Source: Eledone cirrhosa (lineage: Eukaryota). From it: a DNA stretch of 64,000 nt. The notes under the pieces were generated by a model. The model was not told the origin of the DNA, ran no database searches, and saw nothing but the letters and a program-made list of their open reading frames with translations. The stretch is taken from NCBI GenBank assembly GCA_964016885.1, contig OZ024742.1, positions 225,928,001-225,992,000 on the forward strand, written 5' to 3'. Position 1 is the stretch's first letter. Each line of letters starts with the position of its first letter. Both the position numbers and the translations under genes were made by a program. Positions 1 to 57,833 of the stretch are shown here, piece by piece.

Positions 1-172
1 ATAAGTACTCTATATCGAGGATAGTTTTAATGTACGCCGTTGTTTGACTCAACAAGAAGTTTCCTTAGTCGGGTGCCAGTTCAAGAAAGTTCCTAGGCAG
101 GCGGTTCTTGGAGTAATAATATCAAAAGAATGAAGAATAACATGGTCGGCTGTACAATAGGGTTTATTTACA

Positions 173-291
173 GTATTAACAATTGTTTCATTAGTCTGGT
201 GTGTCTAAAAGTTGCTGATCGCTAGACGTTACACCACTCGACCTTAATTACAGTCGATACCCGACCAAATCTGACCAGATCATCAGAATAC
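173..291 (-). ncRNA. Type I hammerhead motif, family 1, antisense copy
   Basis: minus strand: gtatt CTGATGA ... GAAAC aatt GTT aatac. Confidence 0.65.
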
Positions 292-295
292 TGAT

Positions 296-397
296 GTATT
301 CTGACGATTTGGTTGGGTATTGACTATAATTAAGGTCGAGTGACATAACTTTTAGCGACTTTTAGACACATCGGACTAATGAAACAATTGTTAATAT
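296..397 (+). ncRNA. Type I hammerhead motif, family 1, long stem II
   Basis: gtatt CTGACGA ... GAAAC aatt GTT aatat; stem I gtatt/aatat; palindromic loop III AATT. Confidence 0.65.
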
Positions 398-719
398 TGT
401 AAATAAACCCTATTGTACAGCCGGCCATGGTATTCTTCACTCTTTTACTATATATATATATATATATATATATATATATATATATATATGAAGGTAGATA
501 AGGTTTTGTTTATGTATATCAGGAATGAATGCTTAAACAAGAAATTTGCTTACCAGTGAGTTTGACTCAACGGTATCCATTGAATCGTATAGCATAAATA
601 TCCAAGCAGGGGAGTATGATATATAGGTCCAGAAGAGATCATGGAGTATATTAATATAAGCAAGTATTGTACTAAGAAAAATATAAATGTCGGCGTGAAG
701 GAGATTAGGAATTTATTTG

Positions 720-761
720 CTTTAACATATGTTTCTGTGTCTATTATATATTCTTAGAAAA
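720..761 (-). ncRNA. Decayed hammerhead relic
   Basis: minus strand: tttt CT-AAGA ... GAAAC atat GTT aaag; core G missing; abuts an inverted repeat (about 754-800 with 915-959). Confidence 0.35.
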
Positions 762-1329
762 TGTAGAAATCCAAAATGCAGAAAATAACTGTAACTACAG
801 TTTGTGACTACACCTGTTTGTGTGTGTCACCACCCCACCAACGCTATAGATAATTGCTTAGAAAATTAGGAGTATTTTACTTGATTTTCTATGCTATTAT
901 TTATAGCAATTGACTGTAGTTACAGTTATTTTCTGCATTTGGGATTTCTACATTTTCTATGAATGTTATACCTGCCCAACACTCCAATATTTTTTGAAAT
1001 ATTACATATATATGTATATGTGTGTGTGTGTGTGTGTGTGTGTGTACGTCTGGGGATGTATGGATAAGTGTAGTCATGGGATCTTGCATATTTATTCATG
1101 TGAGATTCACATAAGCCTGATCACCATCCTTTGAACTAAGGGCTAACAGGCACAATAGGGTACTTTCACAATATGTGGTAGCCTGTGGGTGACAGTGTCT
1201 GGAAGAAAGCAATGTAACAAGGCATTACAATACATCTAAGCAACTAAACATTTGCGAGTTTTCCTTGACTGCTGTCAAGCAACCACACTCACACTTCTCT
1301 TTTCTGGTCGGTCCAGAAAACAAACAAAG

Positions 1330-2130
1330 AACTCTCTTCTCATCAGATGTCAATGTTGGAATCATCTAAGGCAGGGATGGAGAGATGATGGAGATGTTAA
1401 AGAAGAAGTGTGTAGACGTATGCTGCATGAAATTAGTAAAATGGAGGGCGGTCTTCAGCCAAAATGACTACAGGCAAGGAACATAAGTACAAGTATTTTT
1501 AGGTGGGTAGCAGTAATGGTGTAGGTGAAGTAGGAATACTATTGGAAAAGAAATGGATGGATAAGGTAATTGAGGTAATAAGAATGTGTGATAGAATAAT
1601 TAAGCTTTAACTAACCTTGGACAACACAACAGTTGTGCTTATTTCTAGAGAAACTGAAGTATCATTTTTTAGGTATTCTCTTGTAGTAAAACAGAAGGAC
1701 CATTTTTATGAATTCTTAAAAACTATTTTGATGATGAATGGTTGTCACCTCATTATTGCAGCTGGTCACTTCAATGTAAGCCACTATATCTAGCTTTCAT
1801 TTATCTGGAGAAGGCTTTTAACAGAGTACCCTTATCTGACATCTGGTGGTCCTTAAGGAAATTTGGTGTAGAAGAATGGTTTATAAGAGCAGTTTCAAGC
1901 TATGTACAGAGGAGCTGTTAGTAATGAGAGTAAGAAGTGAGTTTAGCAAGCAATTCAGTGTGCAAGAAGGTATTTATCAGGGTTCAGTCCTCATCCCACT
2001 TGTGTTTATTATAATTCTCCAGGTCATAACAGAGGTGTTTAAAACTGGCTTCTATATACTCGTGACCTGGTTCTTATAGTGGAATCTGTGGACAAGCTAA
2101 AGAAGAACTTATGACTGTGGAACTAGAACT
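1330..2130 (+). mobile_element. Degraded RTE LINE fragment (endonuclease and RT pieces)
   Basis: resembles 5' APE region of the 19661-22997 element; GIYQGSVLIPLVFIIILQ. Confidence 0.7.
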
Positions 2131-2948
2131 TAGAATCAAAGCTTATCTATCCACTTCTCAGCTAGTAGAATGCTCACTCCACCTACACCATCATCATTTC
2201 CTACCTAGAAAAGCTTATATCTATGCTGTTTTACCTGTGAATAGTCATGCTAAGTCACCCCTCCATCTCACCTCTTGTACACAGCATACATCCACTTGCC
2301 TCCTCTCAAGCAACTCCAAAATTTCCCCAAATCTACTTTTCAGAGTAGCAATCTTGAGATGTCTTACCTGACAGTGGTTATTAGATTATCTTTTGATTGT
2401 AGCTTTCTATACTTGAAATGGAATATGAGTGTGCAATTGCTTGATGACATTTCAGAGGATATTCTACATGGCTTGGTCAATCACCCCACTCCCTTGTGTA
2501 GTACTGAGAAAATTAGTATTGGTTCTGTACACACAATTAGTGTGCATGTTGTATGTTGGGATTTTCATAATTTGGTTTGATTTTTCTAGCTAGATACTCT
2601 TCCTATCGCCAACCATTTTTCAGCATGAACTGTAGACATTCTTCATGTTATCAGCACTAGAGAGATTGTCTGTAAGGATTTAAGAGTCTTCTTCCCTCTG
2701 TATCAGTTTTTATTCAAAGTATCTGTTCTCCTAGATGGGTTGCTCTTCATTATGTCTCACAGAGCCCACACCTACTCCATGTGCAATCTTATGGGTTACC
2801 TTCCCCATGGCTTATGGAGCCCATGTCTATCCTGAAAAATCTTATTATTTGAAGTGACTGCCTTCCTAGATGGGCTGCCTTTGCTGTGACTTACAGAGTA
2901 GTCCACAACTGCCGCATATACACACTAATTATACAGTTATGGTATATA

Positions 2949-55685: not shown

Positions 55686-56045
55686 CATAATTAAACAAAC
55701 AATCCAAGCAGAAGTAAAGCTGTTGTGTAGTACAAAAAATGTTATGTAGTATTAAGATATGTTTATGTGGCAAGATAATTATAGTTAAAACAGTTTCTAT
55801 GTGAGTTTATGGTGGATGTGATGTGATAATTGTTTTGGTAATGTTTAAATGTAGATGTTTTGTGAGTATAGATAATGTCCTCCTTTGGGAGTAACCTTCT
55901 TCTATACTCTTTATAACACCCTTTGTTGCAGACAACATCTTCACTCACTTTGAATATGACACTATTGATAGCAGCAATAGTATCAATGTATCTTTATGAA
56001 TGTTCTGTAGAATAGGAATTTAATTATGTGTTTAAACTTTGCCAA

Positions 56046-56092
56046 TGCTCTGATGATACCAAACAGCTGTTTGGAAGAAACGACTGTCAGCA
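56046..56092 (+). ncRNA. Type I hammerhead, family 4
   Basis: tgct CTGATGA taccaaacagctgtttggaa GAAAC gact GTC agca; canonical GUC site. Confidence 0.78.
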
Positions 56093-56129
56093 ATAAAATG
56101 TATTAAATATAGATTTGATTGTTCTGTAC

Positions 56130-56788
56130 TTATATATTATATATATAATATAATATATAATATAATATATAATATAATATATAATATAATATATATTATA
56201 TTATATTATATATATAATATAATATATATATATATATATATATATATATATATATATATATATACATAATATATATATATATATATATATATATATATAT
56301 ATATATATATATATATATATATATATACATAATATATATATAATATATATATATAGAAAACCTGCCAGATAGTCCTATATGAGCAAGACACGGTCACCCG
56401 ACCATCCTTGCCTCAAGCGGGACAATAACCGTCTAACCCATGATAGCGTGGAAAATGTACGTTAAACGAAGATGATGATGATGATGATGAGGATATATAT
56501 AATATATATATATATATATATATATATATATATATATATATATATATATATATATTATATTATATTATATTATATATTTAATATATATTATATTATATTA
56601 TATTATATTATATTATATTATATTATATTATATTATATATATTATATTATATTATATTATATTATATTATATATATAATATAATATATATATATAATATA
56701 TATATATATATATATATATATATATATATATATATATATATATATATATATATATATATATATATATATATATATATATATATATATA
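56130..56788. repeat. (TA)n/(TATAA)n tract containing an RTE tail stub at 56357-56490
   Basis: direct inspection. Confidence 0.9.
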
Positions 56789-56824
56789 TTTAGTTATGTA
56801 ATAAACAACATAAGATAATTATTT

Positions 56825-56880
56825 CATTTACCAGTGGTTTCTTGAAGGCAATGTTATGTCTGTCTTCAGTCGTCAGAATG
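56825..56880 (-). ncRNA. Type I hammerhead, family 5, antisense copy
   Basis: minus strand: catt CTGACGA ctgaagaca...tgccttcaa GAAA ccactgg TA aatg. Confidence 0.72.
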
Positions 56881-57044
56881 AATAAATAACATGGTGTTTT
56901 TATTAAATATGGATTTGAAAACGGAATTAGGGGAAAAAATATATAGATAAATATCCAGAACATAAACATACACACACTCAACCACGCGCATATACCTAAT
57001 AGTATGTAGACGTATACTTTCTCACATAAGCGTATTTGCGTCTA

Positions 57045-57101
57045 CATTCTGATGACTGAAGACAGACATAACATCTGCCTTCAAGAAACCACTGGTAAAT
57101 G
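57045..57101 (+). ncRNA. Type I hammerhead, family 5
   Basis: catt CTGATGA c tgaagacaga cataaca tctgccttca a GAAA ccactgg TA aatg; GUA site. Confidence 0.75.
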
Positions 57102-57833
57102 AAATAATTGTCTTATGTTGTTTATTACATAACTAATAAGCTCTGTAGCCTACATAGAGCACTCTATTTTCCTGTACCTTTCCGACAGAAATATTTCATT
57201 TATATATATATATATATATATATATATATATATATATCAAGCCAGAATCAGTTCCCGTCCCACCCTTGCAAGCAGGGAGAAACGGACGTAAAATGATGAT
57301 GATGATGATGATGATGATATATATATATATATACAGAGAGACAGACCAACCTTACACTAATTGCGTTATTTAGGTACATTTCTTTCTTTGGCTATCTGAG
57401 ATTTTTCCTGAGGCAAGCCACAAATCCTCCAGCTATATTGATTCCATTTTGTAAACTTTACAAAATGAGGTCAATATAGGCTGATGATATGTGGCCTGTC
57501 TCAAGAAATATCTGAAATAGACAGCCAAAGAAACAATTGTATCTAAATGACACTACATTTAGTGTAATAAATATCTACATACCATAACACTTCCCTCGCA
57601 TTGAGTGCTATACCAACTTTGGATATTATATCTATTATATTATATCTATATCTATCCAAATATAATTTGACATTACACTACAATATATATATATCTAAAG
57701 GCACAGATATAGCTGTGTGGTTAAGGAGATAACTTCGTAACTACGTGGTTCCAGGTTCAGTCCAACTCCAGAACACTTTAGGCAAGTGTCTTTTACTATA
57801 ATCTGCAAACATGTTATATTTATCTATAAATTA

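What the first reader, a model, noticed from the sequence alone, without database searches (positions are those of the whole stretch)
124..57136. Five unrelated inverted repeats each carry a divergent pair of hammerhead ribozymes inside HYDIN introns
Seen: inverted repeats 124-291/296-446, 17410-17597/19337-19525, 44214-44470/48000-48255, 52437-52691/55878-56131 and 56789-56880/57045-57136 look unrelated to one another. Yet each arm holds a type I hammerhead core (CUGANGA...GAAA...UH, paired stems I and II), always minus copy left and plus copy right, mostly beside (TA)n. Known: Penelope-like elements and retrozymes carry minimal hammerheads and make inverted ends. Inference: a recurring class of two-tailed foldback ribozyme elements. 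In HYDIN pre-mRNA each sense ribozyme is preceded by its own antisense copy, which could cage it in dsRNA and create an ADAR substrate. The layout may simply be a by-product of insertion mechanics.
Basis: partly seen in the sequence, partly recalled or inferred. Interest (0 to 1): 0.85.

Follow-up and report, generated by a model that had tools for sequence, protein, structure and literature searches.

The report
Two-tailed Penelope retroelement insertions with hammerheads
The paired ribozyme-shaped motifs are real, but they are the ends of five families of Penelope-like jumping genes that often land as back-to-back copies across this genome, so the layout is likely a by-product of insertion and not a device of the HYDIN gene.

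Summary
Observation confirmed: five tails-out inverted pairs in HYDIN introns, ten type I hammerhead motifs (11 hits in the window against 0.04-0.11 in shuffles), and a sixth, older pair that was missed. They are not a new foldback class. Each arm is the 3' end (pLTR) of a high-copy Penelope-like element (PLE) family: one Neptune-type with full-length RT + GIY-YIG copies, four Hydra-clade-like. Each pair is a 5'-truncated copy fused head-to-head to a shorter inverted copy in (TA)n, as published. 'Antisense before sense' follows from this symmetry for a gene on either strand. This suggests coupled priming of both target strands at two RT start sites. Caging is not established. Unpaired sense motifs occur in dynein introns; the deficit (5 sense vs 12 antisense events) is not significant (p about 0.07-0.08) and does not replicate outside HYDIN (p=0.42). 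Cleavage and editing were not tested. The scan noted the same kind of element before in other genomes.

The parts
1..291 (-). Family F1 (Hydra-like PLE) 3' end, arm with tail (tail 1-123, going on about 41 nt beyond the window start to a (TA)n run); hammerhead motif 171-293 with a 10-nt duplication in stem II
296..449 (+). F1 inverted copy without tail, ends in (TA)20; starts at hammerhead stem I; motif 296-397, predicted cut after 392 (GUU)
17358..17603 (-). Family F2 (Neptune-type PLE) 3' end with tail; hammerhead motif 17527-17565; likely a separate insertion from the right arm
17620..19140 (-). Unrelated LINE fragment between the F2 copies (L1/Tx1-like by recalled resemblance; no Pfam hit)
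19143..19331 (-). F2 arm with tail and a 48-nt deletion that removes the hammerhead; foldback partner of the right arm
19328..19529 (+). F2 arm without tail; hammerhead motif 19369-19407, predicted cut after 19402 (CUU); looped out of the local foldback
44122..47999 (-). Family F3 (Hydra-like PLE), 5'-truncated copy with tail (44122-44213), hammerhead motif 44247-44335, 3' UTR and broken GIY-YIG remnant
45896..46486 (-). Broken C-terminal GIY-YIG endonuclease with CxCX5C linker (continues at 47923-48009)
44763..45014 (.). Nested insertion in F3 (tRNA-like SINE part; weak Rfam tRNA hit 44774-44831)
46471..47925 (+). Nested piggyBac-like DNA transposon: TTAA on both sides, terminal inverted repeats, DDE_Tnp_1_7 fragment
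48000..48264 (+). F3 inverted short copy without tail; hammerhead motif 48131-48219, predicted cut after 48214 (AUA)
52302..55877 (-). Family F4 (Hydra-like PLE) 5'-truncated copy with tail (52302-52436), hammerhead motif 52476-52522; split by an RTE-type LINE at about 52911-55686
55873..56138 (+). F4 inverted short copy without tail; hammerhead motif 56046-56092, predicted cut after 56088 (GUC)
56790..57047 (-). Family F5 (Hydra-like PLE) longer arm without tail; hammerhead motif 56823-56882
57045..57203 (+). F5 shorter arm with tail (57137-57203); starts at hammerhead stem I; motif 57045-57101, predicted cut after 57097 (GUA)
57351..57620 (.).
7557..7694 (+). HYDIN exon (matched part)
34626..34859 (+). 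HYDIN exon (matched part)
42414..42701 (+). HYDIN exon (matched part)
60005..60232 (+). HYDIN exon (matched part)

Best explanation
Each pair is a truncated insertion of a Penelope-like retroelement whose two ends are both 3' ends carrying the element's hammerhead motif, likely made when the element's protein cut a (TA)n run and primed reverse transcription on both DNA strands, so that the antisense-before-sense order in HYDIN is a geometric by-product. Shown: the arms are PLE 3' ends; the long arm is colinear with family copies up to the junction; the two ends lie in microsatellite; exactly one arm has the tail; paired arms are more alike than the family background. Inferred: a dimeric RT-endonuclease starts one cDNA at the near start site (no tail) and the other at the far start site (tail) of the same RNA or of RNAs from one source; both start sites lie at short TA-rich runs that could pair with the cut target; the two incomplete cDNAs are joined head-to-head, often just 5' of the hammerhead. 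In the host pre-mRNA the single sense motif is predicted to be nearly silent anyway, because minimal PLE hammerheads need a second sense copy or the PLE protein.
For: High copy: first-look candidates 2069 (F1), 1544 (F3), 1317 (F4), 2311 (F5); 5459 exact copies of the 34-nt F2 core, 2748 + and 2711 -, control 0. F2 full-length 4.2-kb copies with RT and C-terminal GIY-YIG between pLTRs, plus an inverted copy: L191, L192, L209. F3: endonuclease upstream on the same strand in many loci and RT before it in L141, L150, L157. F4: endonuclease upstream in 5 of 30 loci. F1: L076; F5: L100. Orientation: 35 distinct tails-out pairs against 2 tails-in rows outside the window; among the first 100 listed F2 matches, 23 minus-then-plus neighbours within 9 kb and none plus-then-minus within 5 kb (counted by eye). 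Tail on exactly one arm: 35 of 35, 22 of 22 further F2 pairs with both ends readable, 13 of 13 readable pairs of mostly other families from intron scans. Pair divergence below the family median: F1 6 of 6, F2 32 of 33, F3 4 of 5, F4 8 of 9. In L191 both terminal copies share a variant that the internal pLTR lacks. [quoted passage not shown]
Against: RT was tied directly only to F2 and F3; F1 and F5 rest on one endonuclease-bearing locus each. F5 pairs are no more alike than background (6 of 13 below the median; the family is young). Several F2 pairs differ between arms at a 5-nt site just 5' of stem I (L174, L181, L200, L202, L204, L208), and in L192 a diagnostic base groups the two minus copies and not the two termini, which fits two RNA templates or later conversion better than one. 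10 of the 35 pairs were found with a query that held the tail, so only their partner is informative. Six F2 pairs and two intron-scan pairs had an unreadable end; the sixth window pair is ambiguous. Many copies show no partner within the 1.5-kb flank. Tails here are about 50-165 nt, longer than the published 30-40 bp. The two-strand priming step was not observed.
Confidence: 0.85

Rival explanations
1. Caging by selection: the hammerheads cut intronic pre-mRNA in vivo, so sense copies survive in introns mainly when an upstream antisense arm traps them in duplex RNA. The layout still comes from insertion, but the host filters it.
For: In 939 kb of gene span (HYDIN 339 kb, two dynein heavy-chain spans 600 kb): sense motifs 16 covered and 5 uncovered, antisense 13 covered and 12 uncovered events (Fisher p=0.082, binomial p=0.072). 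Counting tandem copies singly (15 uncovered) gives p=0.034 and 0.021. HYDIN alone 9/0 vs 6/4, p=0.054. RTE LINE 3' ends show no antisense bias (55 sense, 48 antisense). Close pairs fold into long duplexes that would bury the motif. Tandem retrozymes are under-represented in Xenopus introns (bioRxiv 10.64898/2026.07.22.740005).
Against: The HYDIN count includes the window, which was picked for its pairs; the independent dynein spans give 7/5 vs 7/8, p=0.42. Five uncovered sense motifs exist in one dynein span, one with an 8-bp stem I. In pair 2 the adjacent arm has lost the ribozyme, so the sense motif is looped out. Single minimal motifs showed no detectable cleavage (PMC4209133) or needed PLE protein (PMC11167929). 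Two of five window families have a U at the cut site. No pile of 5' ends at the F2 cut site: only 9 such junctions genome-wide, spread over +26 to +35.
Confidence: 0.12
2. A separate class of non-autonomous foldback ribozyme elements (MITE-like or retrozyme-like) that moves as a two-armed unit.
For: F2 has a sharp 5' truncation hotspot: 47 of 77 alignments start 32-45 nt upstream of the core, giving near-identical short palindromes at many loci. One deleted F2 foldback form occurs at 4 places.
Against: Junctions and arm lengths differ from locus to locus; the same ends belong to full-length RT-endonuclease elements; either arm can be the long one or the tailed one. No tandem hammerhead units in the five pairs.
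Confidence: 0.03
3. The inverted arms arose after insertion (DNA repair, hairpin capping) or are assembly artefacts.
For: Paired arms are closer to each other than to the family, which local copying would also give.
Against: Local copying cannot give one arm a tail that the other lacks at a fixed family-specific point. Arms differ by 2-10% in the window and are separated by nested elements.
Confidence: 0.02

Closest known systems
Insertion units of EN+ Penelope-like elements with an inverted 5'-truncated copy and a one-sided tail (Craig et al. 2021, PMC8557442, Fig. 2 legend and text)
   Same: 5'-truncated body, inverted truncated copy at its 5' end, tail at one end, hammerhead in the pLTR, microsatellite target.
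   Different: The tail is on exactly one arm in all 70 readable pairs, where the paper says 'often'; tails are longer (about 50-165 nt against 30-40 bp).
Hydra clade PLEs (Craig et al. 2021, section read in full)
   Same: C-terminal GIY-YIG without the internal CxxC of CCHH, CxCX5C linker, CxxC and CxH around E/N, RWK and DKT in a related RT, hammerheads, (TA)n targeting: families F1, F3, F4, F5.
   Different: Described from 23 proteins, mostly cnidarian, with few mollusc families; here the endonuclease gives 43,776 first-look candidates, and 3' UTRs reach 0.6-1.6 kb. No tree was built.
Neptune (or Nematis) clade PLEs
   Same: F2: DKG, GxKF, CX4CxxC linker, CxxC inside the GIY-YIG core, partial tandems.
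   Different: The full-length F2 copies L191, L192 and L209 all show two overlapping reading frames (about 476 and 775 codons), not one ORF; an intron or frameshift is untested.
Minimal type I hammerheads of metazoan PLEs (Cervera and de la Pena 2014, PMC4209133)
   Same: Conserved core, short helix I, palindromic helix III (15 of 25 distinct stem-III sequences perfect, 35 of 48 inner pairs complementary), pairs on opposite strands.
   Different: G10.1-C11.1 is absent from all five window families; F1 and F3 have 60-90-nt branched stem II regions.
Non-LTR retrozymes (PMC7229834, listing only; bioRxiv 10.64898/2026.07.22.740005)
   Same: Type I hammerhead of PLE origin.
   Different: Retrozymes are direct tandem units; the five pairs are inverted with one sense motif each.

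Membership tests
EN+ Penelope-like element | RT followed by C-terminal GIY-YIG endonuclease upstream of the repeat, same strand | tested here: met
   F2: L209 RVT_1 E=2.9e-6 (27.6 bits, under the 29.6 cut-off) and GIY-YIG 27.8 bits (over 22.6). F3: RT then endonuclease then pLTR in L141, L150, L157 by tblastn; Pfam gave no hit for these proteins.
EN+ Penelope-like element | Same, for F1, F4, F5 | tested here: inconclusive
   Endonuclease upstream on the same strand in L076 (F1), L004/L018/L021/L023/L026 (F4), L100 (F5); RT not traced to these families.
EN+ Penelope-like element | pLTR as partial tandem repeat | tested here: met
   F2 L191, L192: two direct copies 4.2 kb apart around the ORFs. 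Not checked for the other families.
EN+ Penelope-like element | Inverted 5'-truncated copy at the 5' end | tested here: met
EN+ Penelope-like element | Optional tail at one end | tested here: met
   70 of 70 readable pairs outside the window and the five window pairs
Hydra clade | CxCX5C linker | tested here: met
   Window remnant, L141, L076 for F1; region not covered for F4 and F5
Hydra clade | CCHH motif absent; CxxC and CxH around conserved E and N | tested here: met
   Read from translations for F1, F3, F4; C-terminal motifs only for F5
Hydra clade | RWK and DKT in the RT N-terminal region | tested here: inconclusive
   Present in L148, a related element; F3-linked RT pieces align to L148 only from residue 195 on
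Hydra clade | Insertion into (TA)n | tested here: met
Hydra clade | Phylogenetic placement with reference Hydra proteins | not tested
   No reference set was in hand
Neptune clade (F2) | DKG, GxKF/Y, CX2-5CxxC linker, CCHH | tested here: met
   L209 motifs; Nematis not excluded, no tree
Neptune clade (F2) | Single ORF | tested here: not met
   Two overlapping frames in L191, L192, L209
Minimal type I hammerhead | CUGANGA / GAAA / UH core with helices I-III | tested here: met
   stems differ in sequence between families yet pair (one search shows only the core invariant)
Minimal type I hammerhead | Palindromic helix III and loop | tested here: met
   the descriptor asked for only the outer two pairs
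Minimal type I hammerhead | G10.1-C11.1 pair | tested here: not met
   Absent in all five window families
Minimal type I hammerhead | Match to an Rfam hammerhead model | tested here: not met
Minimal type I hammerhead | Self-cleavage | not testable with these tools
   Needs an assay
Non-LTR retrozyme | Direct tandem units each with a hammerhead | tested here: not met
MITE / foldback DNA transposon | Fixed symmetric termini and fixed length | tested here: not met
   Asymmetric ends and variable junctions

The most novel reading that the evidence does not exclude
These hammerheads cut pre-mRNA in vivo, and the back-to-back insertion mode is what lets Penelope-like elements persist in introns: each insertion brings its own upstream antisense arm, which cages the sense ribozyme in duplex RNA (and feeds A-to-I editing), while sense copies without such an arm are purged.
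Probability: 0.12. Interest if true: 0.65.

Novelty: new member of a known kind. Interest (0 to 1): 0.27.

Why it matters
As a host feature it is ordinary: transposon debris in introns. Two things are of use to PLE specialists. First, the strict one-tail-per-insertion rule over more than a dozen families links the two RT start sites seen in vitro to the two DNA strands of one event and gives a testable model for how inverted PLE insertions form. Second, this genome holds several very high-copy Hydra-like families and a young Neptune-type family (5459 exact cores, near-intact full-length copies), which is enough material for a well-powered test of whether PLE hammerheads are selected against in sense orientation in introns.

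Tried and rejected
Rfam found no hammerhead in the whole window or in two short stretches. Single-strand folding of the six motifs gave no significant z-score. A DNA search with the F2 arm returned nothing because its words are too common; an exact pattern worked. Pfam gave no hit for four Hydra-like proteins or the window remnant. RNA evidence: no RNA holder listed, so editing and cleavage are open. Contigs of three runs of one sample were laid on pair 2; they are swamped by other copies and bridge nothing, so they say nothing on the junction or an empty allele. Idea that RT runs off at the ribozyme cut site: five F2 alignments start within 5 nt of it (two probably not independent), but genome-wide the exact deletion junction occurs 4 times and hotspot-to-cut-site junctions 9 times with no peak; not supported. 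The intron test was planned for 1.2 Mb of dynein genes; only 600 kb (both + strand) was obtained, so it is underpowered and lacks a minus-strand gene. Dynein spans were taken between DHC_N2 and Dynein_C hits and not checked exon by exon. Six motifs outside the verified HYDIN span were dropped before the count. Counting 19374(+) as covered relies on the separate copy 1.8 kb upstream. The 5' start analysis failed for F4. An early guess that all families are Neptune was dropped after reading the Hydra definition.
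Full report
Setting. The window is G000:C3:225,928,001-225,992,000 of a 3.0-Gb animal genome. Its repeats look octopus-like to me; this is recalled, not tested. HYDIN is on the + strand. Four window ORFs match mouse HYDIN in order, Hydin_ADK exons lie 84-88 kb upstream, and exons at aa 284-328, 436-600 and 4535-4592 fix a span from about 174 kb before the window to 101 kb after it. 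All pairs are intronic.

The observation. All five pairs exist. A type I hammerhead descriptor finds 11 motifs, ten in the named arms and one at 57481(+), against 0.04-0.11 in 100 shuffles. Stem I differs in sequence among families yet pairs in each, and only the core is invariant. Helix III tends to be palindromic although the descriptor fixed only two pairs: 15 of 25 distinct sequences are perfect and 35 of 48 inner pairs complementary. Against the ribozyme call: no Rfam hit, no significant folding z-score, no G10.1-C11.1 pair, and U at the cut site in F1 and F2. The arms of different pairs are unrelated.

What the arms are. Each arm is a dispersed repeat: 2069, 1544, 1317 and 2311 first-look candidates for F1, F3, F4, F5 (not copy numbers) and 5459 exact copies of the F2 core. 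The sequence between the arms is more of the same element. In pairs 3, 4 and 5 the minus arm is colinear with other family copies up to the junction once nested insertions are set aside. Pair 3 holds a broken GIY-YIG endonuclease with a CxCX5C linker, split by a piggyBac-like element. Full-length F2 copies are 4.2 kb with RT and C-terminal GIY-YIG between direct pLTRs, with DKG, GxKF, a CX4CxxC linker and an internal CxxC, that is Neptune-type; L209 is two full-length copies head-to-head. F3 follows RT and endonuclease in L141, L150, L157. F4 has an endonuclease upstream in 5 of 30 loci, F1 and F5 in one each. These endonucleases fit the Hydra clade as defined in PMC8557442; no tree was built and RT was not traced for F1, F4, F5.

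Pair 2 is compound. The right arm folds back on a third copy (19143-19331) that has the tail and shares a diagnostic base with it, but has lost 48 nt holding the ribozyme. The sense motif is looped out in the predicted fold. The copy at 17358-17603 carries other variants and is likely a separate insertion.

The layout is general and known. Outside the window I found 35 distinct tails-out pairs and 2 tails-in rows. PMC8557442 describes an inverted 5'-truncated copy at the 5' end and a tail often at one end only. PMC4209133 reports dual minimal hammerheads 100-700 bp apart on opposite strands. Because the unit is symmetric, a gene on either strand meets the antisense copy first, so the order in HYDIN needs no selection.

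The one-tail rule. Every family has two fixed 3' ends, a short one and a longer one with a tail. In F2 the tail is the start of the next tandem unit, as in the anole element. Exactly one arm has the tail in 35 of 35 pairs (in 10 the query held the tail), 22 of 22 more F2 pairs (six unreadable, one tail/tail row is an internal pLTR) and 13 of 13 readable pairs from unselected intron scans (two unreadable, one spurious row, the sixth window pair ambiguous). Either the long or the short arm can carry it. Paired arms are closer than the family median in 50 of 53 comparisons for F1-F4 and 6 of 13 for F5 (these rows include window pairs and some non-terminal F2 comparisons). PMC11167929 shows two adjacent internal RT start sites that define the tail, cutting and extension of both strands, and a predicted dimer. 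I infer that one event primes both strands, one at each site. Whether one or two RNA molecules are copied is open: L191 favours one, while six F2 pairs that differ at a 5-nt site, and L192, do not. I did not find the strict rule in print in searches, but this library lacks most older Penelope papers and I read no supplements, which may state it.

5' ends. F2 copies stop mostly 32-45 nt upstream of the core (47 of 77 alignments). F1 and F5 starts pile up just 5' of the core too (biased by queries that began there). No clear pile lies at the cut site.

Caging. Sense motifs: 16 covered by an upstream antisense arm, 5 not. Antisense: 13 covered, 12 uncovered events, or 15 if tandem copies count singly. 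Fisher p is 0.082 by event and 0.034 by motif. HYDIN alone gives 0.054, but includes the window; the dynein spans alone give 0.42. RTE LINEs show no strand bias. So a weak deficit is possible but not shown, and uncovered sense motifs are tolerated. Published assays found no cleavage by a single minimal motif or cleavage only with PLE protein; an antisense arm cannot be the dimer partner. No RNA data were available for editing.

What I read. PMC8557442: passages and section 11 in full. PMC11167929 and PMC4209133: parts 1-2 of 4 (results and discussion). bioRxiv 10.64898/2026.07.22.740005: part 1 of 5 and passages. PMC13282606: passages (Penelope-like families active in Octopus vulgaris; no mention of hammerhead, Neptune or Hydra). 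Others: listings only.

Verdict. Real, well above chance, and a new instance of a described structure. The strict one-tail rule is a modest addition to PLE mechanism. Interest 0.27.

Noticed in passing
G000:C3:225887185-225888117 (-), L229/L230, in a HYDIN intron 40 kb upstream of the window: Three identical 466-bp direct repeats, each with a compact GUC hammerhead: a retrozyme-like array, antisense to HYDIN.
   Followed up: no
L191, L192, L209: Near-intact 4.2-kb Neptune-type elements with two overlapping frames (about 476 and 775 codons) in all three copies; an intron or programmed frameshift is possible. L209 is two full-length copies head-to-head.
   Followed up: partly
F2 family, 7-12 nt upstream of the core (L174, L181, L200, L202, L204, L208): A 5-nt site just 5' of stem I is highly variable and often differs between the two arms of one insertion while the rest nearly matches.
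   Followed up: partly
F2 family, 32-45 nt upstream of the core: Sharp 5' truncation hotspot that gives recurrent near-perfect palindromic junctions; five of the first 23 pairs have the same spacing.
   Followed up: partly
window 19143-19529 and G000:C3:226161301-226161375: The same deleted F2 foldback (ribozyme lost from one arm) occurs again 214 kb away; here and there it abuts the same end of an L1/Tx1-like fragment, so the two may share an origin.
   Followed up: partly
G000 genome-wide: 43,776 first-look candidates for the Hydra-like endonuclease, and over 20 further hammerhead families in 1.07 Mb: a large PLE load.
   Followed up: no
window 57546 to 101 kb past the window end: No hammerhead motif in about 108 kb of HYDIN introns, against 11 in the first 57.5 kb of the window: strongly patchy.
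   Followed up: no
window 28129-28392 (-): Fragment of a Penelope/Poseidon-type GIY-YIG endonuclease next to (TA)n, 69% identical to L144.
   Followed up: no
window 19661-22807 (-): Open 1048-codon RTE-type LINE frame (endonuclease, RT, PHD-like finger), a likely young copy; 'RTE' is a recalled label.
   Followed up: no
window 12566-16889 (+): Broken Ty3/gypsy-like LTR element (gag, RT, integrase pieces by recalled resemblance); 12566-12865 recurs at 25192-25491.
   Followed up: no
L210:9760-9900 (-), about 100-240 nt upstream of pair 1's left end: A further diverged F5-like end lies just upstream of the window.
   Followed up: no
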